Assembly: GCA_964016885.1 (NCBI GenBank)
Contig: OZ024744.1
Location: 39,432,001 to 39,496,000, forward strand
Length of the DNA stretch: 64,000 bases
Source: Eledone cirrhosa
Taxonomy: Eukaryota
Direction: 5' to 3'
Below, piece after piece: positions 3,836-55,469 of this stretch. Both the position numbers and the translations under genes were made by a program. A model generated the notes under the pieces. It was not told where the DNA came from, ran no database searches, and worked only from the letters and a program-made list of their open reading frames with translations. Positions within the stretch are counted from its first letter, which is position 1. Every line of letters begins with the position of its first letter.

Positions 3836-4697
<862 letters not shown>

Positions 4698-18345: not shown

Positions 18346-18367
18346 TAATAATAATAATAATAATAAT

Positions 18368-18680
18368 GATTTCTTTATTGGCCACAAGGGCTGACATCAA
18401 GAAAAATATCACAGACGGAACAGGACGGTACGATGTGGGTTTTGTGCGTGTAAATATTTTTATTATTTATATAAGAAAAGAAAAAAGACATAAAACATAT
18501 ATATATATATATATAAACAATAAAATGAAAATTGAAACAATGAAAAATTCCCCAATAGGGGGAAAACCTCCGAGGGTTACTCGTGGCGAAAACCACACTA
18601 AAGACCACGGCCACCCTGACTACCAGGGCAAGCGCCCTCTCTCAATTTTTCCATCTCTCAAACTACAGACGTATATTCAT
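18368..18680 (-). mobile_element. Tx1-like LINE 3' UTR stub between two (AAT)n tracts
   Basis: (AAT)n-GATTTCTTTATTGGCCACAAGGG and the conserved AAAATTCCCCAATAGGGG...ACCCTGACTACCAGGGCAAG block. Confidence 0.75.
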
Positions 18681-18688
18681 AAAAATAT

Positions 18689-18732
<44 letters not shown>

Positions 18733-18734
18733 GT

Positions 18735-21248: not shown

Positions 21249-21250
<2 letters not shown>
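18735..21250 (+). mobile_element. Dong/R4-clade non-LTR retrotransposon (RT plus restriction-like endonuclease), 5'-truncated, in (AAT)n
   Basis: RT motifs NYRPITCL, EQKGC, WIDYKKAF, GIFQGDSLSPLLF, HLFYMDDLKL; zinc knuckle CRVCKKEPETIDHIISMC; RHD; RLE NRPDIILKD...IDMSVP...EKLSKYKDL. Several stops/frameshifts; (AAT)n on both sides. Confidence 0.9.
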
Positions 21251-21297
<47 letters not shown>

Positions 21298-21524
21298 TTT
21301 CTTTATTAACCACAAGGTTTTACATAAAGTAGACATTAAGGACAGTGCAGGACAATACAGTACGGTACAAATGGGCATTTCTGCGTGTAAAAAACAAAGA
21401 GGATGTAACAAAAAATAACAATGAAAAATTCCCCAATAGGGACATTTGTGGAGGAAGCCCAGTAAAAGGCCACAGTGACCCTGACCACCAAGGCAAGTGC
21501 CCTCTCCCAGTTTTCCACCTTTAA

Positions 21525-24500
21525 TTTACAGCTATATACTCAGAGTAGGCCCATTCACTCGGGCCATTCTTGCTTCTCTCACCCATCTTTCAACAAAATG
21601 CTGGGAAGTCAATCAGAGCATCACCGAAGAGGTAAGTGCTCATCTTCAGCCCTTTCAAACGTGTCCACCATACTATCTCTTTCGCCATGGCCACCAGACA
21701 GATAAAAACTGCCTGCCCTTCCCGGCTAAAGGAGGAGGGCGGGGCAATCCTCACGATGGACTCAGATGATAGCCGGATCCGTCCTACACGCGACAGCAGG
21801 TGTTTGACATAAACCCACAAGTCAGCAATTTTCGGACACTGGACGAGTGCGTGCAGGACGGTTTCGTCGCCCTGCGCGCATCTCGGACATGCCCGGCTGA
21901 CGGCACCTCCATGCCTGTAGAGTTTATCCCGAACTGGCAAGGCTCCTCGGTAGCACTGCCAGGCCAGAGATTTCTGGAAGTTGTCCATAGGCCCTGGCCC
22001 GAAAGTTCTTCCGAAGAGATTGGCTAGTTGATTTTCGTCGACGCCTAGAGTTTCCCCAAGTACGTCGTCGCTCTTCCCCTCCACTAATGCTCTATAGAAC
22101 GCCGAGGTGGAGTTTCCACCGATCACATTGCCCGATTGGTCGAGGGCTGTGAGCGCCTGAAGACATTCCAGTCTCCAGGCGCTCCCTCTCGGTCTTCGCT
22201 TGACCCAGGACTGCAGCTCCGTCAAGGAAACGAGCTGGAGAAATACGTGTCTAGCAAACGGCGACCACACCTGATCACCGTCGAGGAAGAGGTGGAGATG
22301 TCGTAGCCTGAGCGCGTGCCTGCGCATCATCAGCCACGGCATTCCCAGCCCTCCACGTAGCGGGTGTTGACAACAGATGGACCGCCTGACCATCGGAGCG
22401 CGTCCCTTCCACAAAAAGCGAAAGAGCAAACGCTCCAGCGCAGTCAGGCGAGGCTTAGGACAAAGTACGACGGTCAGGCGGTAGCAGATGACAGACGCGA
22501 TGTACGCGTTAGTCACCTCCGCTCGACCTTTCAGGGATAGCTTCCTCTCTGCCCATTTCTGGGTGAGAGAAGCCACCCTGCTCGTCACCTCGTCCCAGTT
22601 TTTGTCCGTCTGGAGGTCCGGACCGAAACAGACCCCTAGCAATTTAACCGGTCCGTCCGTCCAGCGTCCGACGACGCTGTTGGACGGCATGGACCTGCCT
22701 CTCCAGGTGCCGAGCTGCAGGCCCACTGACTTTTCCTGGTTGATCATTGCTCCTGTCACCGCTTCGTATTCTCTTAGTGTAGTGCCGATCGCCTCGATGT
22801 GTTTGGCGTTCGACACCACTACGGTGACATCGTCCGCATATGCTGACACGGATCTTCCGCATCCTAGTTCGCGCGGGACGCCCCTCAACGTCTCCAGTTT
22901 GTGCAGTAATGGCTCGAGAGTCAATACGTACAAGAGGGGACATCCTTGGCGCACCGAGCGCATGATGTTGAACGGTTCCGACAGGTGACCGTTCACTCTC
23001 ACCACAGAGCAGATGTCGCTGTGCATGGCAGCGATCCAGCCTCTGAAGACGGGCCCAAAGCCAGCCGCCCTCAGGACTGCCGCTTGGTAACGATGGTCGA
23101 CCCTATCGAAAGCTTTCGACTGATCTAAATTGATCAAGGACCCACCCGTGCCAGGTTCCCTAGCTACCCTCTCTACGATGTATCGCATGAGGTGGAGGTT
23201 GTCGTGGATGGATCTGTCGGGAATGGCGCATGTCTGCGCCTCTCCCACCAGACCACCAACGACAAGCGCCAACCTCTTTTTTAGCACCTTGGCCAAAATC
23301 TTGAACTCTGTGTTTAGCAGAGTTATGGGCCGGAAATTATCTATGTTATCCCCCTTGTTCGGATCCTTTCTCAGCAGTGCCACCGCTCCTCGGCTCACAG
23401 AACTGGGAATTCTTCCGTTCTGTTGCCAGTTGCAGTAGACGTTCGCCAAGAGGCCTCCGAACAAGTCTGGCATCTGTACGTAAAGTTCATAGGGCAGACC
23501 ATCCAAACCAGGCGATTTACCCCTTGTGCAGCCAGTCATTCCCTCCCTTACTTCAGCGGCTGTTATCGGCTTTTCGCAACACTTCGCCTTAGTGGACGAG
23601 AGCCGCGGCAGTCCGTCGAGGTAGACACTAAAACCATCCCTCGACCCGGCCCACCGCTGCCCCCGAACAGCTGAGCGAAGAGTCGCTGAAAAGCTTCACA
23701 CATTTGCCGGGATCGAGTAGAATGCGCCCGTCGTGGTCCACCAAAGACCGGATCGTGGCTTTGTTGCCACGACGCGCCTCCGCCACTCGGGCCCATTGAA
23801 CGGCTTTCGTCCCCTCGTGTCTGAGAGCACGCACCCTTGCTCTGACAACGCAGCCTTCGTGCTTTGCATTGAAGAATTGGTCAAGGGCCAATTTCGCCAC
23901 AAGCACGTCGGTCGCAATGCCTTTGCTAAGCGCCTCGTCTAATTTTCTAACTAGTTCTCCCTCTGCTCTATTTTTCTCTATTGCTAAAGCCTTACTAAAC
24001 CTAATGGATTCTATTCTAATCGCTCTTTTCAGAGCAAACCACCACTTGTTGTTGACGATGGCCCCCGTCAACGCCCGCTTAACTAGTTGGCTAATCCGGT
24101 CTCTGTAGGCCTTGCGCGCTGGTAAGGACGCGTTTAGCTTCCAGTAGCCGGGTCCTCGTCTATGAAGCCTATCTAAGTCAAGCACACAGATCACGAATTT
24201 GTGGTCCGTGTAGCTGACTATCTTGAATTGTGGACAGCCTATGCTAGACCTATCTATTTCCCTACAAAATACTCTATCTAGATATGATCTGGATGACCAT
24301 ATGCGATTTGTCCAAGTCCACATTGGCACATTCGGGAAATCCAATCGGTACCTGTCAGACAGTTCAAAACACCTGAGCAGGTCGGTGAGGCTCTTGCACC
24401 CTCCACCCCTATCCGCTAATCCCACACAGTCCCAGCGTGCATCTAAGATCCCGTTCCAGTCGCCCACTAACACTAAAGAGCGGGACGTTCCAAGAAAGGT

Positions 24501-24881
24501 CTCCAGACGCCGGAAGAAATCAGGCCGCCCTGCTCCTGTCGGGGCATAGACGGCCACTAGCCTGAAAGCTTGCCCGTCTCCGCTGGTCACGTCCAGCACC
24601 ACCAACTTACCCTCTGGGTCCAGGAAGATGGCCCGTATGGCGAGATCCAAACCTCTCCGAAAAATCACAGCCACTCATCCCCCCGATCCAGGACGGCTGG
24701 GAGATGCGTACACATCGTAGCCGCCGAAGATCGGTGCGAAGGCCCGTGCTTCGGAGATTCTGGTCTCGCTGATGGCCACTACATCTATGTTTAGTGACCT
24801 GAGGTCGTTGAGCAGGTGACCCTGCTTCCATGACGACCCCAAGCCACGCGCATTTATGCTGCCTATTCTGAGTGAGGTCAT
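21525..24881 (-). pseudogene. ORF2 (APE-RT-CCHC) of copy A, frameshifted
   Basis: Broken into ORFs 24675-24881, 23628-24674 and 21590-23539, with small deletions relative to copy B. Confidence 0.88.
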
Positions 24882-25000
24882 GTTTAAAATAGAGTGGAAA
24901 AGATGGGAAAGACCACTTACCGTACTTTTGGTAGAGGAGGGATGGTTTTTCCATCCCTTTTCACTTGATCGTCTGGTAAAGGGACCGTTGAATCGTCCCT

Positions 25001-27013
25001 TCAGCTGGTCATCGGCTCTTCTATGAGTATGTCCGAATATACTCTTCGGTTGATAGTTCCTCCTAGGTCTCTGAAATCACCAACTGCGTTGGGGAATTTC
25101 GTTTTAATGTTTGTGTATTGTTTCTGTGCTATTTTTAGCAGTCTTATGTTAGTTGGCGTTTTGATTGGTGCTGGTATTATGTAGTCGTGTTGTGAAATGT
25201 CTGTGTGTTCAATTATGTAAGTCATTAGTTTCTTGTTGTGTGTATTTATTGCCGTGCATTTGTTTTTCTGGGGGTGGGGTGTGGTTCTGCTATTTTCTAG
25301 TCGTTGTTGCTGGGTGTGTGTGTTTTGTTGTTGTGTTTGCGATGTTGGTGCTTGTGGTGTTGAAGGTGATGTTGGCGGTGGGGTTGTCGCCGGTGGTGAT
25401 GGTGGTGCTAGTGTGGGTGGTGATGGTGTTGGTGGTGTTGCTGCTGTGAGTCTCTTTGCAGTAGACTTTACCCTTTTTTCATTTCTTTCCTCCCTTTTCA
25501 AAGGCGACGATGCGCTGCTTCTGCGTTTGTGCCTTCTTACGACCTTTTGCCATCCCTCTCCAACCTCACACTCCATGTCTGATTCTGTGAGGTCGGGGAG
25601 GGGTACCAGCTCCACTCTTTCACTTGTTGTTGGTGATGTTTGCACTGGAGTCTCTGTTGCAGCTGCATTTGGTATTGCTGTTGTTGTTGTTAATACTTCC
25701 ACTGCTGCTGCTGTTTTTGATTTCCGTGGCGTGTGTATGGGTGCCACGGACCTATCGTTCCTGGTTTCCGCTTGTCCTGTTGCTGCTAGCCGTGGAGCCG
25801 GTTTCGGAAGGAGGGGGGTTTTCTCCTTTCTCGGGGTCTTCTCGTTGCAGAAGGCCCTGAGGTGAATCTTCGAACCACAGCGAAAGCATTTCGGGCGTTT
25901 GCCCTCAACACTTATGGGCAGTTGAGTGCCGTTATCGAAATCTATCACATCCGGGATAGCTTCGATGCACTCCTGGTTGGTTTGGATTAACATCTCAATG
26001 GAGGTGCCAACCCAATCTTCTCTTACTTTTTTCTGTACTTGCAGTACAGTTGTTTTGTCCTCGATTCCGACGAGGGCAGACGCGGCCAGCTAAGAAGGGG
26101 CCATCCCGGGGGGGACGTGGGTCAGTTTGACCCTCACAATTTTTTGGCCGCAGTAGGAGGGCACCAACACCATTTCCTCGCTCCTTAGGGTCACTAAGGA
26201 TTGAGCCTTTGCCTCCTGGGGTGTGGCAAAAAGTACGTCTACGGTGGCATATTTCTTGCCTCGGGTGATGTGCGTTTTCCGCTGCCACACAGACCCCAAG
26301 GCTTTTTGTATTTGAGCCTCTGTGGCTCTTTCAACCCTACGGGATTTTGTACTTACTGTACGGTACGTGACCGTACAGTGCTGTTGGGTTTCGAAAAAAT
26401 TTTCGGCTGCCTTGCAGATTGCTCGGTGTCTAGTTTTTGTCACCATCTTCTTCGCTTCCTCTAATTCCTCATTTGTTATGAGGATGGTTTCCAGGTTCTT
26501 CGCGATACCTGCAAACGAGATTGGTTTTTCTTTGCTGCTGTTGTTGTTGTTGTTGTCGTCAGAGCTGCTGTTACTTTTGTTGTTGCTGCAGATACTACGA
26601 CTACTGCCGCCGCCGCTGTTGCTGTGGTTGTTGTTGTTGTTGCTGCTGCTAATGCTGTTGTTGTTTATGCTGCTGCTGATGCTGTTGCGGCTGCTACTGT
26701 TGTTTTCATTGTCACTGTTGCTGTTGTTATTACGGCTGCTACTGCTATTATTCCTGACGTCAGACGAATGAAATGGGTTTTCGTATTTCCCGCACACCTG
26801 TTTCGTCGTTGTCGTCGTCGTCGTGGAGAAATCTGGCACGCTTTGCACGAGACTTTTCTTTTCTGTCGTCGCTTGCGAAAGAGAAGGGAGAGAGAGAGAC
26901 ACATTTAAAGAAGGGAGGGAGAGAGACAATCTTCTCTCTGCTGTAGTGACGATTGAGGAAGAAGAAGACGGAATGAGTGGGAGTGACCTATGAAAATTCT
27001 AATTCGTAGCCAT
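25001..27013 (-). pseudogene. ORF1 (gag-like, Asn/Ser-rich N-terminus, CCHC zinc knuckle) of copy A
   Basis: ATG at 27013; one frame to 25001 with two in-frame TAG stops (codon 5, and 26090-26092). Copy E has AAG and TGG at these codons. Knuckle CFRCGSKIHLRAFC. Confidence 0.85.
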
Positions 27014-27228
27014 GTTGTTTTTTTGTTTAAAATAAATATTGGGCACAAAACCCCAATAAGCAGTTATTTAACCCCGAAGGGCCAAATAACGGGCAGAAAG
27101 ACCCCTCTCACGAGGAGGAGGGTGTTTTTGTCTACAAGTTGGTTAAAGTTTTAAACAATTTACAATTGTTATAGCGGTTAAAATTTACAATACCTTACAG
27201 AGCCGAGCCTCCGTCAACCATAGCATTC

Positions 27229-27285
<57 letters not shown>

Positions 27286-27431
27286 GCTTTTTGGAACGCT
27301 TCAAAAGGCATGCTTGCTGGGAACAGCAAGAACCCTCCGATACGTCCTGAATATCTGAGGCTGCAGGTAGTGGCTTGATATTCATTTCAACAAACTTTCC
27401 AGTTAACTAACATCAATGACTGAGACTCAAA
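27286..27431 (+). mobile_element. 3' stub of a second Dong/R4-like family between (AAT)n tracts (other copies 28270-28622, 34950-35095, 35934-36286)
   Basis: Translates GTLQKACLLGTARTLRYVLNI*, a typical R4/Dong C-terminus, then a short UTR and (AAT)n. Confidence 0.72.
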
Positions 27432-27466
<35 letters not shown>

Positions 27467-27468
<2 letters not shown>

Positions 27469-28115
27469 CATAATAAAAATGGATGCAGCCCATTATGCCG
27501 TGTATGCAAAAAACAACCAGAGACCATTGACCATATAATTTCAATGTGCAGTCCTATAGCTCCAACCGAATACCTAAACAGGCATGACAGAGCTGCACAA
27601 TACATACATTGGATAATGTGTAAGCATTTTGACCTGCCCCATCAAAAGAATTGGTGGGAGCATCAACCACCTCCCATACTTGAAAAAGATCACATCTCAA
27701 TCTTGTGGAACTTTAGCATCCAAACAGACCGAAAAATAGATGCAAATAGACCTGATATAATACTGAAGGACTTTAAAAAGAGGGTGTGCCTGCTAATTGA
27801 TATGTCCGTTCCAATAGACAAGAATGTATCTATAAAAACATTTGAAAAATTGATAAGTATAAGGACCTGGAGATAGAAATTGGAAAAATATGGAAATTGA
27901 GAACTAAAACAATACCAGTGGTTGTAGGCGCTCTAGGAATGATACCTAAGGGGTCTAATGATTACCTATCGCAAATCCTAGGAAACCCGCGTATAGGAGA
28001 AGTACATAAGATAGTACTAATGGGAACTGCCCGTATACTAAGGAAGATTCTGTCAATATGAGTACACAACAAGTCTAAACACCTAAAGATGCATGTGTGT
28101 GTATGTATGTTCTTT
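27467..28115 (+). mobile_element. Dong/R4-like 3' fragment (RLE domain), same family as 18735-21250; repeated at 35131-35779
   Basis: Near-identical to 20510-21160; starts directly after (AAT)n and is fused to a Tx1 ORF2 scrap at 28116-28211. Confidence 0.85.
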
Positions 28116-28393
28116 CTGTCCGGAATGGTGCATGTCTGCGCCTCTCCCACCAAACCCTTGACGACAAGCGCCAACCTCGTTGCTAACACCTTGGCCAAAA
28201 TCTTGAACTCATTTCATTTATTGGCCACAAGGGCCGACATATAGGGAACAATACTGGGATAATAATAATGATTTTGGAACACTTCAAAAGGCATGCTTGC
28301 TGGGAACAGCAAGATCCCTCCGATACGTCCTGAATATCTGAGGCTGCAGGTAGTGGCTTGATATTCATTTCAACAAACTTTCCAGTTAAATAA

Positions 28394-28582
28394 CTGTTTC
28401 TACTTTTGGCACAAGGCCAGCAATTACTCAGTGCATTACTGGTACTTTATTTTATCGACACCGTAAGGATGAAAGGCAAAGTTAACCTCGGCGGGATTTG
28501 AACTCAGAATGGCAAGGGCCGTAACTCTATACGTCAAAGCATGGCGTCCGACCCTCTACCGATACTGCCAATCCACCGCCCT
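28394..28582 (-). mobile_element. Full-length tRNA-derived SINE with 18-bp TSD (duplicate at 36058-36246)
   Basis: A box TGGCAGTATCGG and B box GAGTTCAAATCCC on the minus strand; TSD AACTTTCCAGTTAAATAA at 28376-28393 and 28583-28600. Confidence 0.88.
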
Positions 28583-28636
28583 AACTTTCCAGTTAAATAA
28601 TATCAATTACTGAGACTCAAAGAATAATAATAATAA

Positions 28637-28826
28637 TTGTTTCTACTTTTGGCACAAGGCCAGCAATTATCCCAGTGTATTACTGGTACTTTATTTTATC
28701 GACTCCGTAAGGATGAAAGGTAAAGTTAACCTCGGCGGGATTTGAACTCAGATCATAAAGGGCCGTAACTCGTTGCCTCAAAGCATGGCGTCCGACCCTC
28801 TACCGATACTGCCAATTCACCACCCT
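28637..28826 (-). mobile_element. Full-length tRNA-derived SINE inside (AAT)n (duplicate at 36301-36490)
   Basis: Same family as 28394-28582, with AAT repeats on both sides. Confidence 0.85.
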
Positions 28827-28827
28827 A

Positions 28828-28868
<41 letters not shown>

Positions 28869-29128
28869 TTTCTTTATTAACCACAAGGGTTTACATAAAG
28901 TAGACATTAAGGACAGTGCAGGACAATGCAGGACGGTACAAATGGGCATTTCTGCGTGTAAAAAAACAAAAACAGAGGATGTAACAAAAATAACAATGAA
29001 AATAACAATGAAAAATTCCCCAATAGGGGGGAGACTTCGGAGGGACATTTGTGGAGAAAGCCCAGTAAAAGGCCACAATGACCCTGACCACCAAGGCAAG
29101 TGCCCTCTCCCAGTTTTCCACCTTTAGT

Positions 29129-32100
29129 TTACAGATATATACTCAGAGTCGGCCCATTCACTCGGGCCATTCTTGCTTCTCTCACCCATCTTTCAACAAA
29201 ATGCTGGGAAGAGAGCACTTCCTTCTCTACTCTGATTTTCCTTTTCAAATGAAATTTGAAAAAGTCAATCAGAGCATCACCGAAGAGGTAAGTGCTCGTC
29301 TTCAGCCCTTTCAAACGTGTCCACCATACTATCTCTTTCGCCATGGCCACCAGACAGATAAAAACTGCCTGCCCTTCCCGGCTAAAGGAGGAGGGCGGGG
29401 CAATCCTCACGATAGACTCAGATGATAGCTGGATCCGTCCTAAACGCGACAGCAGGTGTTCGACATAAACCCACAAGTCAGCAATTTTCGGACACTGGAC
29501 GAGTGCGTGCAGGACGGTTTCGTCGCCCTGCGCGCATCTCGGACATGCCCGGCTGACGGCACCTCCATGCCTGTAGAGTTTATCCCGAACTGGCAAGGCT
29601 CCTCGGTAGCACTGCCAGGCCAGAGATTTCTGGAAGTTGTCCATAGGCCCCGGCCCGAAAGTTCTTCCGAAGAGATTGGCTAGTTGATTTTCGTCGACGC
29701 CTAGAGTTTCCCCAAGTACGTCGTCGCTCTTCCCCTCCACTAATCCTCTATAGAACGCCGAGGTGGAGTTTCCACCGATCACATTGCCCGATTGGTCGAG
29801 GGCTGTGAGCGCCTGAAGACATTCCAGTCTCCAGGCGCTCCCTCTCGGTCTTCGCTTGACCCAGGACTGCAGCTCCGTCAAGGAAACGAGCTGGGGAAAA
29901 ACGCGTCTAGCAAACGGCGACCACACCTGATCACCGTCGAGGAAGAGGTGGAGATGTCGTAGCCTGAGCGCGTGCCTGCGCATCATCAGCCACGGCATGC
30001 CCAGCCCTCCACGTAGCGGGTGTTGACAACAGATGGACCGCCTGACCATCGGAGCACGTCCCTTCCACAAAAAGCGAAAGAGCAAACGCTCCAGCGCAGT
30101 CAGGCGAGGCTTAGGACAAGGTACGACGGTTAGGCGGTAGCAGATGACAGACGCGATGTACGCGTTAGCCACCTCCGCTCGACCTTTCAGGGATAGCTTC
30201 CTCTCCGCCCATTTCTGGGTGAGAGAAGCCACCCTGCTCGTCACCTCGTCCCAGTTTTTGTCCGTCTGGAGGTCCGGACCGAACCAGACCCCTAGCAATT
30301 TAACCGGTCCGTCCGTCCAGCGCCCGACGACGCTGTTGGACGGCATGGACCTGCCTCTCCAGGTGCCGAGCTGCAGGCCCACTGATTTTTCCTGGTTGAT
30401 CATTGCTCCTGTCACCGCTTCGTATTCTCTTAGTGTAGTGCCGATCGCCTCGATGTGTTTGGCGTTCGACACCACTACGGTGACATCGTCCGCATATGCT
30501 GACACGGATCTTCCGCATCCTAGTTCGCGCGGGACTCCCCTCAACGTCTCCAGTTTGTGCAGTAATGGCTCGAGCGTCAATACGTACAAGAGGGACGAGA
30601 GGGGACATCCTTGGCGGACCGAGCGCATGATGTTGAACGGTTCCGACAGGTGACCGTTCACTCTCACCACAGAGCAGATGTCGCTGTGCATGGCAGCGAT
30701 CCAGCCTCTGAAGACGGGCCCAAAGCCAGCCGCCCTCAGGACTGCCGCTAGGTAACGATGGTCGACCCTATCGAAAGCTTTCGACTGATCTAAATTGATC
30801 AAGGACCCACCCGTGCCAGGTTCCCTAGCTACCCTCTCTACGATGTATCGCATGAGGTGGAGGTTGTCGTGGATGGATCTGTCGGGAATGGCGCATGTCT
30901 GCGCCTCTCCCACCAGACCACCAACGACAAGCGCCAACCTCTTTGCTAGCACCTTGGCCAAAATCTTAAACTCTGTGTTTAGCAGAGTTATGGGCCGGAA
31001 ATTTTCTATGTTATCCCCCTTGTTCGGATCCTTTCTCAGCAGTGCCACCGCTCCTCGGCTCACAGAACTGGGAATTCTCCCGTTCTGTTGCCAGTTGCAG
31101 TAGACGTCCGCCAAGAGGCCTCCGAACAAGTCTGGCATCTGTACGTAAAGTTCATAGGGCAGACCATCCAAACCAGGCGATTTACCCCTTGTGCAGCCAG
31201 TCATTGCCTCCCTTACTTCAGCGGCTGTTATCGGCTTTTCGCAACACTTCACCTCAGTGGCCGAGAGCCGCGGCAGTCCGTCGAGGTAGACACTAAAGTC
31301 CATCCCTCTACCCGGCCCACCGCTGCCCCCGAACAGCTGAGCGAAGTGTCGCTGAAAAGCTTCACACATTTGCCCGGGATCGAGTAGCATGCGCCCGTCG
31401 TGGTCCACCAAAGACCGGATCGTGGCTTTGTTGCCACGACGCGCCTCCGCCACTCGGGCCCATTGCACGGCTTTCGTCCCCTCGTGTCTGAGAGCACGCA
31501 CCCTTGCTCTGACAACGCAGCCTTCGTGCTTTGCATTGAAGAATTGGTCAAGGGCCAATTTCGCCGCAAGCACGTCGGTCGCAATGCCTTTGCTAAGAGC
31601 CTCGTCTAATTTTCTAACTAGTTCTCCCTCTGCTCTATTTTTCTCTATTGCTAAAGCCTTACTAAACCTAATCGATTCTATTCTAATCGCTCTTTTCAGA
31701 GCAAACCACCACTTGTTGTTGACGATGGCCCCCGTCAACGCCCGCTTAACTAGTTCGCTAATCCGGTCTCTGTAGGCCTTGCGCGCTGGTAAGGACGCGT
31801 TTAGCTTCCAGTAGCCGGGTCCTCGTCTATGAAGCCTATCTAAGTCAAGCACACAGATCACGAATTTGTGGTCCGTGTAGCTGACTATCTTGAATTGTGG
31901 ACAGCCTATGCTAGACCTATCTATTTCCCTACAAAATACTCTATCTAGATACGATCTGGATGACCCTATGCGGTTTGTCCAAGTCCACATTGGCACATTC
32001 GGGAAATCCAATCGGTACCTGTCAGACAGTTCAAAACGCCTGAGCAGGTTGGTGAGGCTCTTGCACCCTCCACCCCTATCCGCTAATCCCACACAGTCCC

Positions 32101-32548
32101 AGCGTGCATCTAAGATCCCGTTCCAGTCGCCCACTAACACTAAAGAGCGGGACGTTCCAAGAAAGGTCTCCAGACGCCGGAAGAAATCAGGCCGCCCTGC
32201 TCCTGTCGGGGCATAGACGGCCACTAGCCTGAAAGCTTGCCCGTCTCCGCTGGTCACGTCCAGCACCACCAGCTTACCCTCTGGGTCCAGGAAGATGGCC
32301 CGTATGGCGAGATCCAAACCTCTCCGAAAAAGCACAGCAACTCCTCCACCGGATCCAGGACGGCTGGGAGATGCGTACACATCGAAGCCGCCGAAGATCG
32401 GTGCGAAGGCCCGTGCTTCGGAGATTCTGGTCTCGCTGATGGCCACTACATCTATGTTTAGTGACCTGAGGTCGTTGAGCAGGTGACCCTGCTTCCATGA
32501 CGACCCCAAGCCACGCGCATTTATGCTGCCTATTCTGAGTGAGGTCAT
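29129..32548 (-). CDS. Tx1/L1-like ORF2p: APE endonuclease, reverse transcriptase, C-terminal CCHC finger (1139 aa, intact)
   Basis: GSINARGL, ISET, VYAP, GDWN, SYLDRVF, TDHK; PGLDGLP, FRPITLLNTEFKILAK, DQSKAFDRVDH, RQGCPLS, YADD; CPRC...ETVLHALVQC. Confidence 0.93.
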   Translation of the reverse strand: MTSLRIGSINARGLGSSWKQGHLLNDLRSLNIDVVAISETRISEARAFAPIFGGFDVYASPSRPGSGGGVAVLFRRGLDLAIRAIFLDPEGKLVVLDVTSGDGQAFRLVAVYAPTGAGRPDFFRRLETFLGTSRSLVLVGDWNGILDARWDCVGLADRGGGCKSLTNLLRRFELSDRYRLDFPNVPMWTWTNRIGSSRSYLDRVFCREIDRSSIGCPQFKIVSYTDHKFVICVLDLDRLHRRGPGYWKLNASLPARKAYRDRISELVKRALTGAIVNNKWWFALKRAIRIESIRFSKALAIEKNRAEGELVRKLDEALSKGIATDVLAAKLALDQFFNAKHEGCVVRARVRALRHEGTKAVQWARVAEARRGNKATIRSLVDHDGRMLLDPGQMCEAFQRHFAQLFGGSGGPGRGMDFSVYLDGLPRLSATEVKCCEKPITAAEVREAMTGCTRGKSPGLDGLPYELYVQMPDLFGGLLADVYCNWQQNGRIPSSVSRGAVALLRKDPNKGDNIENFRPITLLNTEFKILAKVLAKRLALVVGGLVGEAQTCAIPDRSIHDNLHLMRYIVERVAREPGTGGSLINLDQSKAFDRVDHRYLAAVLRAAGFGPVFRGWIAAMHSDICSVVRVNGHLSEPFNIMRSVRQGCPLSSLLYVLTLEPLLHKLETLRGVPRELGCGRSVSAYADDVTVVVSNAKHIEAIGTTLREYEAVTGAMINQEKSVGLQLGTWRGRSMPSNSVVGRWTDGPVKLLGVWFGPDLQTDKNWDEVTSRVASLTQKWAERKLSLKGRAEVANAYIASVICYRLTVVPCPKPRLTALERLLFRFLWKGRAPMVRRSICCQHPLRGGLGMPWLMMRRHALRLRHLHLFLDGDQVWSPFARRVFPQLVSLTELQSWVKRRPRGSAWRLECLQALTALDQSGNVIGGNSTSAFYRGLVEGKSDDVLGETLGVDENQLANLFGRTFGPGPMDNFQKSLAWQCYRGALPVRDKLYRHGGAVSRACPRCAQGDETVLHALVQCPKIADLWVYVEHLLSRLGRIQLSSESIVRIAPPSSFSREGQAVFICLVAMAKEIVWWTRLKGLKTSTYLFGDALIDFFKFHLKRKIRVEKEVLSSQHFVERWVREARMARVNGPTLSIYL

Positions 32549-32667
32549 GTTTAAAATAGAGTGGAAAAGATGGGAAAGACCACTTACCGTACTTTTGGTA
32601 GAGGAGGGATGGTTTTTCCATCCCTTTTCACTTGATCGTCTGGTAAAGGGACCGTTGAATCGTCCCT

Positions 32668-34680
32668 TCAGCTGGTCATCGGCTCTTCTATGAGTATGTC
32701 CGAATATACTCTTCGGTTGATAGTTCCTCCTAGGTCTCTGAAATCACCAACTGCGTTGGGGAATTTCGTTTTAATGTTTGTGTATTGTTTCTGTGCTATT
32801 TTTAGCAGTCTTATGTTAGTTGGCGTTTTGATTGGTGCTGGTATTATGTAGTCGTGTTGTGAAATGTCTGTGTGTTCAATTATGTAAGTCATTAGTTTCT
32901 TGTTGTGTGTATTTATTGCCGTGCATTTGTTTTTCTGGGGGTGGGGTGTGGTTCTGCTATTTTCTAGTCGTTGTTGCTGGGTGTGTGTGTTTTGTTGTTG
33001 TGTTTGCGATGTTGGTGCTTGTGGTGTTGAAGGTGATGTTGGCGGTGGGGTTGTCGCCGGTGGTGATGGTGGTGCTAGTGTGGGTGGTGATGGTGTTGGT
33101 GGTGTTGCTGCTGTGAGTCTCTTTGCAGTAGACTTTACCCTTTTTTCATTTCTTTCCTCCCTTTTCAAAGGCGACGATGCGCTGCTTCTGCGTTTGTGCC
33201 TTCTTACGACCTTTTGCCATCCCTCTCCAACCTCACACTCCATGTCTGATTCTGTGAGGTCGGGGAGGGGTACCAGCTCCACTCTTTCACTTGTTGTTGG
33301 TGATGTTTGCACTGGAGTCTCTGTTGCAGCTGCATTTGGTATTGCTGTTGTTGTTGTTAATACTTCCACTGCTGCTGCTGTTTTTGATTTCCGTGGCGTG
33401 TGTATGGGTGCCACGGACCTATCGTTCCTGGTTTCCGCTTGTCCTGTTGCTGCTAGCCGTGGAGCCGGTTTCGGAAGGAGGGGGGTTTTCTCCTTTCTCG
33501 GGGTCTTCTCGTTGCAGAAGGCCCTGAGGTGAATCTTCGAACCACAGCGAAAGCATTTCGGGCGTTTGCCCTCAACACTTATGGGCAGTTGAGTGCCGTT
33601 ATCGAAATCTATCACATCCGGGATAGCTTCGATGCACTCCTGGTTGGTTTGGATTAACATCTCAATGGAGGTGCCAACCCAATCTTCTCTTACTTTTTTC
33701 TGTACTTGCAGTACAGTTGTTTTGTCCTCGATTCCGACGAGGGCAGACGCGGCCAGCTAAGAAGGGGCCATCCCGGGGGGGACGTGGGTCAGTTTGACCC
33801 TCACAATTTTTTGGCCGCAGTAGGAGGGCACCAACACCATTTCCTCGCTCCTTAGGGTCACTAAGGATTGAGCCTTTGCCTCCTGGGGTGTGGCAAAAAG
33901 TACGTCTACGGTGGCATATTTCTTGCCTCGGGTGATGTGCGTTTTCCGCTGCCACACAGACCCCAAGGCTTTTTGTATTTGAGCCTCTGTGGCTCTTTCA
34001 ACCCTACGGGATTTTGTACTTACTGTACGGTACGTGACCGTACAGTGCTGTTGGGTTTCGAAAAAATTTTCGGCTGCCTTGCAGATTGCTCGGTGTCTAG
34101 TTTTTGTCACCATCTTCTTCGCTTCCTCTAATTCCTCATTTGTTATGAGGATGGTTTCCAGGTTCTTCGCGATACCTGCAAACGAGATTGGTTTTTCTTT
34201 GCTGCTGTTGTTGTTGTTGTTGTCGTCAGAGCTGCTGTTACTTTTGTTGTTGCTGCAGATACTACGACTACTGCCGCCGCCGCTGTTGCTGTGGTTGTTG
34301 TTGTTGTTGCTGCTGCTAATGCTGTTGTTGTTTATGCTGCTGCTGATGCTGTTGCGGCTGCTACTGTTGTTTTCATTGTCACTGTTGCTGTTGTTATTAC
34401 GGCTGCTACTGCTATTATTCCTGACGTCAGACGAATGAAATGGGTTTTCGTATTTCCCGCACACCTGTTTCGTCGTTGTCGTCGTCGTCGTGGAGAAATC
34501 TGGCACGCTTTGCACGAGACTTTTCTTTTCTGTCGTCGCTTGCGAAAGAGAAGGGAGAGAGAGAGACACATTTAAAGAAGGGAGGGAGAGAGACAATCTT
34601 CTCTCTGCTGTAGTGACGATTGAGGAAGAAGAAGACGGAATGAGTGGGAGTGACCTATGAAAATTCTAATTCGTAGCCAT
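32668..34680 (-). pseudogene. ORF1 of copy B, with the same two TAG stops as copy A
   Basis: ORF translations are identical to copy A (offset 7667). Confidence 0.85.
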
Positions 34681-34895
34681 GTTGTTTTTTTGTTTAAAAT
34701 AAATATTGGGCACAAAACCCCAATAAGCAGTTATTTAACCCCGAAGGGCCAAATAACGGGCAGAAAGACCCCTCTCACGAGGAGGAGGGTGTTTTTGTCT
34801 ACAAGTTGGTTAAAGTTTTAAACAATTTACAATTGTTATAGCGGTTAAAATTTACAATACCTTACAGAGCCGAGCCTCCGTCAACCATAGCATTC

Positions 34896-34949
<54 letters not shown>

Positions 34950-35095
34950 GCTTTTTGGAACGCTTCAAAAGGCATGCTTGCTGGGAACAGCAAGAACCCT
35001 CCGATACGTCCTGAATATCTGAGGCTGCAGGTAGTGGCTTGATATTCATTTCAACAAACTTTCCAGTTAACTAACATCAATGACTGAGACTCAAA

Positions 35096-35132
<37 letters not shown>

Positions 35133-36491
35133 CATAATAAAAATGGATGCAGCCCATTATGCCGTGTATGCAAAAAACAACCAGAGACCATTGACCATAT
35201 AATTTCAATGTGCAGTCCTATAGCTCCAACCGAATACCTAAACAGGCATGACAGAGCTGCACAATACATACATTGGATAATGTGTAAGCATTTTGACCTG
35301 CCCCATCAAAAGAATTGGTGGGAGCATCAACCACCTCCCATACTTGAAAAAGATCACATCTCAATCTTGTGGAACTTTAGCATCCAAACAGACCGAAAAA
35401 TAGATGCAAATAGACCTGATATAATACTGAAGGACTTTAAAAAGAGGGTGTGCCTGCTAATTGATATGTCCGTTCCAATAGACAAGAATGTATCTATAAA
35501 AACATTTGAAAAATTGATAAGTATAAGGACCTGGAGATAGAAATTGGAAAAATATGGAAATTGAGAACTAAAACAATACCAGTGGTTGTAGGCGCTCTAG
35601 GAATGATACCTAAGGGGTCTAATGATTACCTATCGCAAATCCTAGGAAACCCGCGTATAGGAGAAGTACATAAGATAGTACTAATGGGAACTGCCCGTAT
35701 ACTAAGGAAGATTCTGTCAATATGAGTACACAACAAGTCTAAACACCTAAAGATGCATGTGTGTGTATGTATGTTCTTTCTGTCCGGAATGGTGCATGTC
35801 TGCGCCTCTCCCACCAAACCCTTGACGACAAGCGCCAACCTCGTTGCTAACACCTTGGCCAAAATCTTGAACTCATTTCATTTATTGGCCACAAGGGCCG
35901 ACATATAGGGAACAATACTGGGATAATAATAATGATTTTGGAACACTTCAAAAGGCATGCTTGCTGGGAACAGCAAGATCCCTCCGATACGTCCTGAATA
36001 TCTGAGGCTGCAGGTAGTGGCTTGATATTCATTTCAACAAACTTTCCAGTTAAATAACTGTTTCTACTTTTGGCACAAGGCCAGCAATTACTCAGTGCAT
36101 TACTGGTACTTTATTTTATCGACACCGTAAGGATGAAAGGCAAAGTTAACCTCGGCGGGATTTGAACTCAGAATGGCAAGGGCCGTAACTCTATACGTCA
36201 AAGCATGGCGTCCGACCCTCTACCGATACTGCCAATCCACCGCCCTAACTTTCCAGTTAAATAATATCAATTACTGAGACTCAAAGAATAATAATAATAA
36301 TTGTTTCTACTTTTGGCACAAGGCCAGCAATTATCCCAGTGTATTACTGGTACTTTATTTTATCGACTCCGTAAGGATGAAAGGTAAAGTTAACCTCGGC
36401 GGGATTTGAACTCAGATCATAAAGGGCCGTAACTCGTTGCCTCAAAGCATGGCGTCCGACCCTCTACCGATACTGCCAATTCACCACCCTA

Positions 36492-36555
<64 letters not shown>

Positions 36556-36639
36556 CTTTCTTTATTAACCACAAGGGTTTACACAAGGTAAGACATTAAG
36601 GACAATACAGGACTCTACCGTAATAATAATAATTATAAT

Positions 36640-39600
36640 GGTTTCTTTATTGGCCACAAAGGCTAACATGAAGGAAAACATTACAGACGGCACAGGACGA
36701 TACAAAGTGGGGTTTGGCCATGTAAAAAGGTTATAGAAGACAGAAACGTGTAAAATAAATTAAAATTCAAACAACAAAAATTCCCCAGTAAGGGGGAAGC
36801 TTCCGAGGGTCACTCATAGCGAAAACCACACAAAAGACCACGGCCACCCCGACCACCAGGGCAAGCGCCCTCTCTCAGTTTTCCCACTCCTCAGTCTACA
36901 GGCGCATACTCAAAGTGATCAGATTCGCCACTTTCACCCACATTTCAACCAACTTACTAGAAAACAGCACTTGCCTTTCCATCCTGATTTTCCTCTTCAA
37001 GTGAAACTCGAAAAAGTTAATCAGGGATTGGCCGGAGAGGAAAGTGTCCGTTTTCAACCCTTTCAACCTTGTCCACCACACAATCTCTTTCGTCATGGCC
37101 ACCAGGCAGATGAAGATTGCTTGCCCTTCCTTCTCTTTAAAGGAGGATGGCGGGGCTATCTACACAATGGACTCAGTCGATAACCGGATCCGTCCTACAC
37201 GCGACAGCAACTGTTCAACATAGCTCCACAGGTCAGCAATCCTCGGGCACTGAACGACTGCGTGTAGGACGGTTTCGTCGTCCTGCGCGCATCACGGACA
37301 GGCTCGGCAGACAGCACCTCAGTGTCTGTAGAGCTTATCCTGAACCGATAACGCTCCCCGGTAGCACTGCCAGGCCAGGGATTTCTGGAAATTGTCCATA
37401 GGTCCCGGGCTGAAAGTTCTCTTGAAGAGAGGAAACTGCTGATCGTCTTCGACGCCCAGGAGTCTCCCCGAGAACGTCGTTGCTCTCCCCATCCACTAGC
37501 CCTATATAGAACACCAAGCTGGATGTTCCACCTATATCAGTGCCCAGCTGGTAGAGGGCGGTGAGCGCCTGGAGACATTCCAGCTTCCAAGCGCTATCCC
37601 TCGGTTTTTTTCTGATCCAGGACTGCAACTCCGTCAAGGAGACAAGCTGGGAAAAAGCGTGTCTGGCAAACGGTGACCACACCTGTTCACCGTCAAGGAA
37701 GCACCAGAGATGTCGCAGCCTCAGCGCATGTTTGCGCATCATTAGCCACGGCATGCCCAGTCCTCCATGCAACGGGTGCTGATAGCAGATGGATCGTTTA
37801 ACCATGGGAGCACGTCCCTTCCACAAAAAACGGAAGAGAAGGCGCTCCATTTTGGTCAGAGTTGGACGGGGGCAAGGTACGACGGTCAGGCAGTAGCAGA
37901 TGACGGACGCGATGTACGCATTCGCCACCTCCGCCCGACCTTTCAGAGACAGCCTCTTCTCAGCCCATTTCTGGGTGAGAGAAGCCACCCTGCTCGTCAC
38001 CTCGCTCCAGATTTTCTCCATCTGGAGGTCCGGACCGAACCAGAACCCGAGCAATTTAACCGGTCCTTCCGTCCAGCGCCCTACAACGCTGTTGGACGGC
38101 ATGGAATTTCCTCTCCAGGTGCCGAGTTGCAAGTCTACCGACTTTTCCTGCTTTATCTTTGCTCTTGTCACCGCTTCATATTCCTTGAGAGCAGGGCCGA
38201 GTATCTGGACCTGTTTGGTGCTCGACACCACTACGGTGACGTCGTAGGCATAAGCCGACACGGATCTCCCGCATTTCAGTTCGCCAGGTACCCCCCCCCC
38301 CCTTATGGTCTCCAATTTGTGCAGTAATGGCTCGAGAGCAAGTACGTACAAGAGGGACGAGAGGGGACAACCTTGGCGGACCGAGCGCATGATGCTGAAC
38401 GGCTGTGGCAGGTGACCATTCCCACTCACAATCGAGCAGATGTCGCTGTGCATCGCAGCGATCCAGCCTCTAAAAATGGGCCCAAATCCGGCCGTTCGAG
38501 GTACCGATGGTCGACTCTATCAAATGCTTTAGATTGAACCAAGTTGATCAGGGCCCCACCCATTCCAGGTTCCTTAACCACCCTCTCTATGATGAATCGC
38601 ATGAGATGGAGGTTGTCGTGGATGGATCTGTCCGGAATGGCGCATGTCTGCGCGTCTCCCACCAGATTACCGACGACAAGCGCCAATCTCTTTGCTAACA
38701 CCTTGGCCAAAATCTTGAACTCTGTGTTTAGCAGAGTTATAGGCCTGAAGTTGTCTATAACGTCCCCTTTGTTCGGGTCTTTTCTCAGCAGCGCCACCGC
38801 TCCCCGGCTCACAAAACTGGGAATGCTCCCGTTCTGCTGCCAGTTGCAGTAGACGTCTGCTAAGAGATCGCCGAACAAGTCTGGCATGTACGCATAAAGC
38901 TCATAGGGAAGACCATCCAAACCTGACGATTTACCTCTCGTGCAGTTAAACATCGCTTCCCGTATTTCACCTGCTCTTATCGGCCTTTCGCAGCACTGTG
39001 CTGCGGTCGCTGAGAGCCGCGGCAGTCCGTCAAGGTATGCACCGAAGTCCATACTCCGATCCTGTCCGCCGCGGCCCCCGAACAATCGAGCAAAGTGCTG
39101 TTGAAAAGCCGCACATATCTGCTCGGGTTCGAGCAATATGCGCCCATTTTGATCAGGCAAAGACCGAATTGTGGCTTTGTTGCCACGTTGCGCATCCACC
39201 ACCCGGGCCCATTGAACGGCTTTCGTCCACTCGTGTCTCAGGACACGCGCTCTAGCTCTGACAACGCATCCTTCGTGCTTTGCGTTGAAGAATTGGTCGA
39301 GTGCCAATCTCGCCGCAAGCACGTCTGTTGCGATGCCTGTTCTAAACGCCTCTTCTAGCTTTCTAATTAGCTCTCCCTCTACTCTATTTTCCTCTATCAC
39401 TACTCCTTTGCTAAACCTTATCGATTCTACTCTAATAGCGCTTTTAAGAGTAAACCACTACCTGTTGTTGACGATTGCACCCGTCAACGCACGCTTAACT
39501 AATTCACTAATCCGGTCTCCGTAAGTTTTGCGCGCCGGGAAAGACGCATTCAGTTTCCAGTAACCAGGCCCTTGCCTATCGAATATATCTAAGTCAACCT

Positions 39601-40745
39601 CACAGGTCACGAATTTGTGGTCCGTGTAGTCGACTACTTTAAATTGTAGACAACTTACACTAGCCTTATCTGTTTCCCTACAGAATACCCTATCTAAATA
39701 CGATCTGGATGACCCGATGCGGTTTGCCCATGTCCACATTGGTACATTCGGATAATCCAGTCTATACCTGTCAGACAGTTCAAAACGTCTGAGCAGGTTG
39801 TTGAGGCTTTTACACCCTCCTGTCCTGTCTACTAGCCCCACATAATCCAAGCGTGCATTTAAGATACTGTTCCAGTCACCCACTAACACTAAGGAGCGGG
39901 ACATTCCAAGAAAGGTCTCTAGACGTCTGAAGAAATCTGGCCGTCCTGCCCCTGTTGGGGCGCTGCTGGTCACGTCCAGCACCACCGACTTACCTTCTGG
40001 GTCCAGGAAGATGGCCCATATGGTGAGATCCAAGCCTCTCCGAAAAAGCACAGCAACCCCTCCCCCCAATCCTGTACGGCTGGGAGATATGTATACATCG
40101 TAGCCGCCGAAGATCGGTGCCAAGTCTCGTGCTTCGGAGATTCTGGTCTCGCTGATGGCCACCACATCTATGTTTAGTGACCTGAGGTCGATGAGCAGGT
40201 GACCCTGCTTCCAAGATGACCCCAGGCCACGTGCATTTATGCTGCCTATTCGAAGTATGGCCATGTTCGATGAGGAACGGGGCAAGTGAGAAAGGATCAC
40301 TTACCTTGATCGTGTGGAGAAGGGACAGTAGAACCGTCCCCTCGGCTTGTCATGGGTGTCTCCAAGACGATATCTTTGTATATTATTTTGGAGAGTGACC
40401 CCCTGAAATCCCCAACTGCGTTGGGGAATTTTTGTTTTAATTGTTTGTAGTTTTCGAGTTCAATTTCTACAATGTTAATGTTTTTTGGTAATGTTCTTGG
40501 TGTTGGTGGTGTGTGGTAATTTACGTCTGAAATATCGGTGTGGTGTTTTATGCGTTCCATTAGTCCTTGGTGTGCAATGTTTATTGCTGTGTACTTTTTG
40601 TGGGGAGCGGTGGTTTTGTTGCTGTTTTCTTGTTGTTGCTGTTGGGTATGTGTGGTTTGTTGTGTTTGTGATATTGGTGTTTTTGGTGATGCTGGTGTTG
40701 GTGTGCTTGTTGTTGGTGTTGATGCTTGTGGTGGTGATGGTGATA
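36640..40745 (-). mobile_element. Tx1-like LINE, diverged subfamily (copy C), ORF1 truncated by a nested copy
   Basis: ORF2 pieces 39458-40264, 38426-39400 and 37335-38453; ORF1 C-terminus KFPNAVGDFR; 3' end lies at an AAT tract. Confidence 0.88.
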
Positions 40746-40747
40746 AT

Positions 40748-41682
40748 GTTTTCTTTATTAACAACGAGGGTTGACATAAAGTTACAGGACGGTATGAATG
40801 GGCATTTCTGCGTGTAAAGTAAAAAACACAGAAAATGACAAAAGAGAAACAAAGGAAAATTCCCCAATAGGGGAGAGACTTTCAAGGGAGATTCGTGGAG
40901 AAAGACCATTAAAAAATCCACGGTGACCCTGCCCACCAGGGCAAGTGCCCTCTCCCAGTTTTCCACCTTTAATTTACAGATACGTACTCAGAGTAGGCCC
41001 ATTCACTCGGGCCATTCTTGCTTCTCTCACCCATCTTTCAACAAAATGCTGGGAAGAGATCACTTCCCTCTCTACCCTGATTTTAGTTAATCAGGGCATT
41101 TCCGAAGTTAATCAGGGCATTTCCGAAGAGGTAAGTGCTCGTCTTCAGCCCTTTCAAACGCGTCCACCACACGACCTCTTTCGCCATGGCCACCAGACAG
41201 ATAAAAACTGCCTGTCCTTCCTGGCTAAAGGAAGAGAGCGGGGAAATCCTCACGATGGACTCAGCTGATAGCCGGATCCGTCCTACACGCGACAGCAGAT
41301 GTTCGAAATAAACCCACAAGTCAGAAATACTCGGACAATGGACGAGTACGTGCAGGACAGGCCCGGTTGACGGCACTTCCATACCTGCAAAGTTTATCCC
41401 GAACTGGCAAATCTCCTAGGTAGCACTGCCAGGTCAGTGATTTCTGGAAGTTGTCCATGGGTCCCGGCCCAAAAGTTCTCTAGAAGATATTGGCTAGTTG
41501 ATTTTCGTCGACGCCCAGAGTCTCCGCAAGGACGTCGTCGCTCTTTCTCTCCACTAATCCTCTATAGAACGCCGAAGTGGAGTTTTCACCGACCGCATTG
41601 CCCGATTGGTCGAGGGCTGTGAGCGCCTGAAGACATTCCAGTTTACAAGCGCTCCCTCTCGGTCTTCACTTGACCGAGGACT
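40748..41682 (-). mobile_element. 5'-truncated Tx1-like LINE (copy D) nested in copy C
   Basis: 3' UTR plus ORF2 C-terminus; junction GGTGATAAT-GTTTTCTTTATTAAC. Confidence 0.85.
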
Positions 41683-41684
41683 AA

Positions 41685-41866
41685 TAATAAAGGTTTCTGA
41701 TTTAGGCACGTGGCCAACAATTTTGGGCGAGAGAAAAGTCGATTAAATCGGCTCTAGTGCATTACTGGTACTTTATTTATCGACCCCGTAAGGATGAAAG
41801 GCAAAGTTAACCTCGGCGGGATTTGAACTCAGAACGTAAAAGGGTATAACTTTAAGCTGCAAAGCA
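41685..41866 (-). mobile_element. Octopus-type SINE
   Basis: Family core sequence, with the 3' end at TAATAATAA. Confidence 0.8.
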
Positions 41867-42073
41867 TAAATGTAAGGACTGGAAAAATGCACCAAAGCAA
41901 CATTCAAGAAAAGCAGAATGACAAGCACAAACTCAATGGAAATAAATGTAAATACAGTAATTAGGGATCTAGAACAGGAACAAGCCTACAGTTATCTAGG
42001 GATCAATGAATGCCAGAGTATTCACCAGCCCAGTATGAAAGAGAGAATCAGGAAGGAATGCTATTGGAGAGTA
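41867..42073 (+). mobile_element. Dong/R4-like RT fragment
   Basis: GLEKCTKATFKK...DLEQEQAYSYLGINE...MKERIRKECYWRV, homologous to 19660-19860. Confidence 0.7.
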
Positions 42074-42074
42074 C

Positions 42075-47875: not shown

Positions 47876-48218
47876 TCGTACCAACCAGGGTGCTTCTAAT
47901 TAAAAACGAAAAGCTATGAAACGAAACAGTGTGAAAAACAAATTAGCCACGAGTAAAAAGTGAAAAAAAAAACAGAAAAAAAAAAAAATGAATAGATTCA
48001 AATGTTAGCCGCAACAGGCCTAGCAAGACAGGGAAAGATAATAAACTTGCTAACAAAACAAACAGAACTCGTTCTGGAGAACGTTCTGAACTGACGGGCC
48101 ATAGGCCTATCTTGTATTGGATGAAGATGATTGTTCCTGAGTCGAAATAGCATCACGAAGAGGAGTGTAAGGAGGTTGGCAACAGGAGATTGAGGTTATA
48201 TGTAGGTTGAGTGCGTAC

Positions 48219-48292
<74 letters not shown>

Positions 48293-48499
48293 TAGGATTG
48301 GTGTTCTGAAATAGCGATGTATACATGAATGTATGTATAGTATATTTGGCAATATATCGTATGTTTAATTAAAAACATTTTGAAGACCTTGCGTTATCAT
48401 TTTTATTTTTAAAGTACTGACTATGTCACTTACTTCTTTTTTTTGCAAAAGAAGGGAGAGAAGCTGACAGATTCTGTTTCACTGTTGACGATCCTCAGA

Positions 48500-55468: not shown

Positions 55469-55469
<1 letters not shown>

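What the first reader, a model, noticed from the sequence alone, without database searches (positions are those of the whole stretch)
28828..34950. (AAT)n-targeting Tx1-like LINE with an intact ORF2 and no poly(A) tail
Seen: copies A, B and E start at exactly the same base (GAATGCTATGG on the element strand) after (ATT)n and end AATAAAGAAA..-(ATT)n. Further 3' ends at 18368, 36555, 36640, 40748 and 45517, and older 5' ends at 18345 and 45043, also touch AAT. The preference persists across several diverged subfamilies. Repeats at the 5' side argue for a target rather than just a tail. I do not know of a described TAA-specific Tx1 family, but I cannot search. Copy B offers an intact APE endonuclease candidate with this specificity.
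Basis: partly seen in the sequence, partly recalled or inferred. Interest (0 to 1): 0.7.

Follow-up and report, generated by a model that had tools for sequence, protein, structure and literature searches.

The report
Jumping gene landing in ATT repeats
In this octopus-like genome, thousands of copies of a LINE-type jumping gene sit inside ATT repeats, always facing the same way, likely because its cutting enzyme picks that repeat, a landing site I did not find described for this kind of element in the papers I could search.

Summary
Confirmed and extended. Copy B is a 6.0-kb L1/Tx1-group LINE (APE endonuclease, RT, zinc finger) in a likely octopod genome. Genome-wide, 2308 of 2390 exact 5' ends follow (ATT)3 in one phase (background 0.04%), none in the other two phases, and 6628 of 7739 3' ends run into ATT with no poly(A). 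Duplications of 15-20 nt that start with ATT and contain non-repeat letters show that the repeat is a pre-existing target. Corrections: A and B are not independent. B is a chimera: a young 3' part with intact ORF2, plus a 5' part and spacer identical to dead copy A, with three ORF1 stops. Fully intact copies exist elsewhere (3 of 20 examined). Truncated copies are less strict (14 of 40). Dong/R4 elements use the same tracts in the opposite orientation; a SINE may be a passenger. Tx1 membership is likely but unproven without named references. Described Tx1 microsatellite targets are TC, TTC, TTCC/TTTC; TAA is described for Dong. This scan noted the same family seven times elsewhere in this genome and once in another.

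The parts
28867..34895 (-). Copy B, 6029-bp L1/Tx1-group LINE; chimera of dead copy A (5' 2.3-2.5 kb) and a young subfamily (3' 3.5 kb)
   Evidence: 87 of 87 diagnostic sites match A before element position 2510; 53 of 54 match the three young copies after it
29129..32548 (-). ORF2, intact, 1139 aa: APE endonuclease (about aa 1-240), RT (aa 511-754), C-terminal zinc finger (aa 974-1026)
   Evidence: endonuclease model pLDDT 90, best fold match human L1 endonuclease, TM 0.8
32584..34680 (-). ORF1, broken by three premature stops; one CCHC knuckle; 697-699 aa in intact copies elsewhere
34896..34946 (+). (AAT)17 tract at the 5' junction of B, read (ATT)n on the element strand
28828..28866 (+). 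(AAT)13 tract at the 3' junction of B; no poly(A)
21296..27228 (-). Copy A, full length, ORF2 frameshifted with a 96-bp gap, same ORF1 stops as B
24719..28866 (.). First copy of the 4.15-kb duplicated segment (5' part of A plus spacer)
32386..36530 (.). Second copy, identical except for one microsatellite length; its end, (AAT)21 at 36492-36554, is a likely empty-site paralog of B's 3' junction
   Evidence: the empty-site reading is inferred
55469..58207 (-). Copy E, both ends present, 3.2-kb internal deletion
36555..36621 (-). 67-bp mini-element: 11 nt of an older 5' end joined to a 3' end, between two ATT tracts
36642..40749 (-). 5'-truncated copy of a sister subfamily, 78% identical to B
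40750..45043 (-). Older, interrupted relative (ORF1 and ORF2 remains)
45517..47878 (-). Older relative, 63% identical, 3' end on (ATT)4-5
16441..18679 (-). Two older relatives in tandem, sharing the (ATT)7 tract at 18346-18366
18732..21249 (+). 5'-truncated Dong/R4-like LINE (RT, CCHC, PD..D restriction-like nuclease motif) between (AAT)n tracts, opposite in orientation to the Tx1-like copies
   Evidence: the Dong label rests on motifs read from the translation and on my recall of the clade
34947..35096 (+). 3' fragment of a second Dong-like family between AAT tracts (also 27283-27432)
28638..28827 (-). 190-bp SINE-like repeat with an (ATT)n tail, same orientation as B (also 36302-36491)
   Evidence: ARAGORN and Rfam gave no tRNA match, so a tRNA origin is my recall, not tested

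Best explanation
This is a recently amplified L1/Tx1-group LINE family that sits in pre-existing (ATT)n repeats in one orientation, likely because its APE endonuclease nicks the (AAT)n strand and primes reverse transcription there. Shown: element anatomy, junction sequences, orientation, and 15-20-nt duplications that begin with ATT. Inferred: (1) the nick falls just 3' of AAT, mostly at a T/A step as for human L1 endonuclease; (2) the RNA ends in AAUAAAGAAA-N-C plus at most a few AUU bases that pair with the primer, so no poly(A) is copied; (3) truncated copies close with a second break 15-20 nt away; (4) full-length copies close by pairing within the tract, probably through a few ATT bases at the RNA's 5' end, which would explain the single phase; (5) each insertion leaves a tract on both sides, so Tx1-like, Dong-like and SINE copies pile up. 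Copy B itself most likely arose when a young insertion recombined with neighbouring copy A, duplicating 4.15 kb.
For: 5' ends: 2308 of 2390 in phase; 0 in the other two phases (the gap pattern works). 3' ends: 6628 of 7739 followed by N-C-ATTAT. Background 0.04%; ends of other repeats 3 of 90. Informative duplications 7 of 110 copies, against a shuffled mean of 1.2 and maximum 5 in 300 shuffles; five are clear, 15-20 nt. Truncated copies have an ATT 7-mer at the 5' junction in 14 of 40, background 0.67%. A second subfamily with another 5' end and ORF1 but the same ORF2 follows ATTATT in 16 of 17 cases, so the preference travels with ORF2 and the 3' end. Catalytic residues N10, E39, D141, N143, D202, H227 are invariant in 41 aligned sequences. 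Xenopus Tx1L endonuclease nicks almost only its own target in vitro (PMC1950540, passages).
Against: No nicking assay. 26 of 40 truncated copies lack the 7-mer and 19 of 40 lack even a 5-mer; some lie in (CTT)n or (ACT)n, and some may be broken after insertion. Full-length copies rarely show a duplication: an interruption near the 3' junction is repeated at the 5' side in 1 of 15, against 5 of 12 truncated copies (Fisher p 0.06). Among 29 loci fetched for an imperfect 5' junction, only one shows the imperfection duplicated. Two of the seven duplications (L124, L136) are weak.
Confidence: 0.6

Rival explanations
1. The endonuclease is a loose, L1-like T/A nicker, and the specificity comes from base pairing: only nicks ending in AAT pair with AUU at the RNA's 3' end, and ATT bases at the RNA's 5' end guide second-strand joining.
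For: Single phase at the 5' junction although duplication lengths vary; several 3' junctions hold only 3-5 nt of ATT; the closest fold is the promiscuous human L1 endonuclease.
Against: Most insertions lie in long tracts, median perfect run 21 nt on both sides, more than 3-nt pairing needs. The PDB holds no Tx1 endonuclease among the hits, so the fold match says little on specificity.
Confidence: 0.25
2. The element carries its own ATT repeats at both ends, inserts at random and creates the tracts, which then grow by slippage.
For: Full-length copies have ATT at the 5' side in 70 of 70 cases but truncated ones in 14 of 40; duplications are rarely visible on full-length copies.
Against: Duplications that start with ATT and continue into non-repeat sequence; truncated copies still about 50-fold enriched; 15 of 43 5' flanks and 19 of 44 3' flanks are ends of Dong, SINE or Tx1 copies; the likely empty paralog at 36492-36554 holds (AAT)21.
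Confidence: 0.1
3. Copies insert broadly and survive or multiply only next to ATT tracts, through selection or segmental duplication.
For: A and B share a duplicated flank; L184 and L185 share one 5' flank.
Against: The 30 loci lie on six contigs with different flanks apart from A and B; an exact, phased junction in 96.6% cannot come from survival; other repeats show 3 of 90.
Confidence: 0.03

Closest known systems
Kibi (TC)n, Koshi (TTC)n and crocodilian (TTCC)n/(TTTC)n Tx1 families (PMC4494074: passages and section 15 read; PMC3812793: passages)
   Same: APE-type non-LTR elements of the Tx1 group that insert in microsatellites
   Different: Target is (ATT)n; the RT branches apart from the fish, turtle and alligator group, 35-41% identity over 320-420 aa
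Dong (R4 clade; Bombyx Dong, DongAg, DongBg, Darwinula Dong; PMC3812793 and PMC7998251, passages)
   Same: Same TAA/ATT repeat as target; Dong-like copies flank this family in the window
   Different: Dong has a restriction-like nuclease; this element has an N-terminal APE domain and a separate ORF1, and faces the other way in the tract
Human LINE-1
   Same: ORF2 layout, endonuclease fold (TM 0.8), inferred nick at a T/A step, duplications of 15-20 nt
   Different: No poly(A) tail; RT region scores 122 bits against L1 and 254 bits against an alligator protein named TX1
L1-Tx1 families of Octopus vulgaris (PMC13282606: first third and passages read) and coleoids (PMC8967140: passages)
   Same: 13 recently active L1-Tx1 families with 421 insertions are listed beside Dong-R4 in O. 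vulgaris
   Different: The word 'target' does not occur in PMC13282606 and no insertion preference appears in the passages seen; supplements and repeat libraries not seen

Membership tests
Tx1 clade (L1 group) | ORF2 with N-terminal APE endonuclease, RT and C-terminal zinc finger | tested here: met
Tx1 clade (L1 group) | Separate ORF1 with RNA-binding domain and CCHC knuckle (feature recalled) | tested here: inconclusive
   CCHC motif visible; Pfam finds no family; Atlas look-alikes are CCHC and ZCCHC3-type RNA-binding proteins, scores 0.90-0.94; single-sequence model unusable
Tx1 clade (L1 group) | RT groups with named Tx1 families, apart from L1 | tested here: inconclusive
   Closer to proteins named TX1/YTX2 than to human L1 (254 vs 122 bits). 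In two quick trees it forms its own branch with Argonauta and unnamed proteins (support 100) inside an unresolved 24-47-row group (support 98); no Tx1L, Keno, Kibi, Koshi or vertebrate L1 row was identifiable
Tx1 clade (L1 group) | Target preference (more than 20% of flanks of one type, the criterion of PMC4494074) | tested here: met
   96.6%
Kibi/Koshi lineage | (TC)n, (TTC)n or (TTCC/TTTC)n target | tested here: not met
   Target is (ATT)n; a few copies abut (CTT)n
Dong/R4 clade | Restriction-like endonuclease after the RT | tested here: not met
   APE domain before the RT
Dong/R4 clade | (TAA)n target | tested here: met
   Same repeat, opposite orientation
L1 proper (mammalian type) | Poly(A) tail | tested here: not met
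   6628 of 7739 exact 3' ends go straight into N-C-ATTAT; one of 18 ends has a short A run
Any family in Repbase or Dfam | Sequence match to a deposited consensus with a stated target | not testable with these tools
   No such library is offered

The most novel reading that the evidence does not exclude
An octopod lineage of Tx1-group LINEs has an APE endonuclease specific for (AAT)n, converging on the target of the unrelated Dong nuclease. Its full-length copies join the 5' side by pairing repeat bases carried in their own RNA, they regenerate landing sites for each other, and they mobilise a very abundant octopus SINE that shares their tail.
Probability: 0.3. Interest if true: 0.7.

Novelty: new variant of a known kind. 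Interest (0 to 1): 0.5.

Why it matters
How APE-type retrotransposons recognise microsatellites was called poorly understood in a 2013 review (PMC3812793, passage). This family supplies intact young copies (99.2-99.5% alike), thousands of junctions and a three-base target, so the endonuclease-versus-pairing question can be tested directly. It also shows two unrelated nuclease classes using one repeat in opposite orientations, and may help explain AAT tracts and stacked repeats in octopus genomes: relatives occur in 4 of 20 evenly spaced 10-kb stretches. Microsatellite-specific Tx1 elements as such are known.

Tried and rejected
Empty allele in other samples: contigs laid on L075 gave no readable joint because SINE joints filled the table. 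Conservation in other organisms: only one contig each showed the repeat beyond an end (X6, X4); too thin to count. Expression: no RNA holder listed. Metagenome relatives were distant (best-segment identity 24-48%), and none of 13 inspected showed an ATT tract; many are incomplete, so this says little. ORF1 fold: pLDDT 38, not used. The careful tree did not finish; both trees are quick ones. Imperfect 5' tracts as a duplication test: mostly uninformative, probably mutations after insertion. Rfam and ARAGORN found nothing for the SINE or the element's ends. Rejected: B as an autonomous master copy; A and B as two insertions; B as an old duplicate of A. Literature: nine searches ran; (Tx1 with TAA, ATT, AAT or TTA repeat terms) returned none. 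Kojima and Fujiwara 2004 is not held, the supplements of PMC4494074 could not be read and its figure 3, which lists targets, was not visible; either could name an ATT-targeting Tx1 family.

Full report
Observation. The element lies on the minus strand at 34895-28867 (6029 bp) between (AAT)17 and (AAT)13. A, B and E begin at the same base and end AATAAAGAAA-N-C before the repeat. ORF2 is open for 1139 aa with Exo_endo_phos, RVT_1 and zf-RVT matches. The best named relative is an Argonauta hians protein at 74%, so the host is likely an octopod; this is inferred.

Genome-wide test. The 25-nt 5' end occurs exactly 2390 times, 2308 times directly after ATTATTATT. The other two phases gave 0; a gapped control pattern gave 652 matches, the 100 listed all in phase. 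The 3' end occurs 7739 times, 6628 times followed by N-C-ATTAT. In 200 kb of evenly spaced DNA, 166 of 400000 positions follow ATTATTATT. Alignment ends of other repeats in that DNA touch an ATT or AAT 7-mer in 3 of 90 cases (a rough control). Thirty loci picked by the 5' end alone all had the tract.

Target or tail. I compared both flanks of 110 distinct copies. They are not a random sample: 20 loci were picked by the 5' end, 50 fetches by best 3' match, 40 from the first listed 3' ends on contig 1 after leaving out some with a listed 5' end upstream, and 29 for an imperfect 5' junction. Seven copies repeat a stretch that is not pure ATT on both sides; shuffled pairings give a mean of 1.2 and at most 5. 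Five are clear, 15-20 nt, all starting with ATT right after N-C (L062, L068, L083, L148, L180). So the 3' repeat is mostly target DNA, and in L083 the RNA can have supplied at most about four bases. Full-length copies have the tract at the 5' side in 70 of 70 cases, truncated ones in 14 of 40 (7-mer) or 21 of 40 (5-mer), against 0.67% and 7.5%. The truncated class includes a few copies that my chaining did not resolve. Against a plain duplication model, an interruption near the 3' junction recurs at the 5' side in 1 of 15 full-length and 5 of 12 truncated copies (p 0.06). With the fixed phase, this suggests that full-length copies close by pairing inside the tract; this is inferred.

Subfamilies. 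A second 5' end with a different ORF1 shares ORF2 at about 95% and follows ATTATT in 16 of 17 cases. Three of 20 loci have both frames open (L081, L082, L084; ORF1 697-699 aa, ORF2 1139 aa) and are 99.2-99.5% alike. None of the 20 loci had both.

Copy B. Its first 2510 nt and the 1.5-kb spacer are identical to A and its spacer, including ORF1 stops; the stop at codon 5 is absent from nine other copies. After position 2510 B is 99.4% like the young copies and 98.1% like A. The switch lies between element positions 2278 and 2548. B is thus a chimera, and its intact ORF2 comes from a young donor. Unequal crossover between a filled and an empty haplotype, copying from A during insertion, and a merged assembly would all give this layout; I could not separate them. 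In each case the second spacer's end, (AAT)21, is the empty form of B's 3' site.

Neighbours. Dong-like elements lie in the same tracts on the other strand. Fifteen of 43 5' flanks and 19 of 44 3' flanks are ends of Dong, SINE or Tx1 copies. The SINE has an ATT tail in the Tx1 orientation (28 of 35 3' ends; 19 of 30 5' ends near ATTATT). Its last 40 nt resemble three older relatives (p 0.003-0.006) but not B (p 0.11), E, the end at 40749 or Dong; eight comparisons were made. A passenger role is a lead only.

Protein. The endonuclease models well (pLDDT 90) and matches human L1 endonuclease best. It differs from L082 at one residue. The RT region scores 254 bits against an alligator protein named TX1 and 122 against human L1. 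Quick trees on 51 and 26 rows, subsets of the hits, put it on its own branch with unresolved deeper links.

Known and new. Tx1 targets named in PMC4494074 (passages, section 15) are Tx1D, U2, TC, TTC, TTCC/TTTC and several transposons; its figure legend adds satellites, U5 and 5S. TAA is given for Dong only (PMC3812793, PMC7998251, passages). L1-Tx1 families are known to be active in octopus (PMC13282606, first third and passages). PMC9115989, PMC4758252, PMC3747384, PMC4640811 and PMC8967140 were read as passages and gave no ATT-targeting Tx1. I did not find this target for Tx1 in nine searches, but Repbase, Dfam, the 2004 paper and one figure were out of reach. Earlier notes of this scan report the same family; they are unchecked and add no support. 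Verdict: real, a new variant of a known kind, interest 0.5.

Noticed in passing
window 36555-36621: 67-bp mini-element with both ends: the first 11 nt match the older 5' end at 18345, the rest is a 3' end 91% like B.
   Followed up: partly
G000 C1:55423680-55455624 (lists): Head-to-tail run of at least five copies spaced 6.0-6.9 kb, each apparently inserted in the tail tract of another.
   Followed up: no
L087, L089, L093, L097 and others: Subfamily with another 5' UTR and ORF1 joined to the same ORF2 just upstream of its start: a module exchange.
   Followed up: partly
L080:1350-1500 and L023: A further repeat family, not identified, that also ends in an (ATT)n tail and hosts truncated Tx1-like copies.
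   Followed up: no
L047, L138, L153, L174, L066: Two more distinct 5' ends that begin directly after ATT tracts; probably further families.
   Followed up: partly
L144 (G000 C1:28014900-28021600): A 283-bp truncated copy inserted at an ATTAT of a short tandem repeat and then duplicated with it.
   Followed up: partly
window 2039-3445 (+): 468-aa frame with an RT followed by a PHD finger, between TA-rich tandem arrays at 1-385 and 3834-4713.
   Followed up: no
window 44124-44492 and 48497-48865: 369-bp inverted duplicate, 98.9% identical, of an old ORF1 fragment.
   Followed up: no
Fourteen of 24 listed runs, under 11 organism labels, hold at least a fifth of B's sampled words; only some were laid.
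   Followed up: partly
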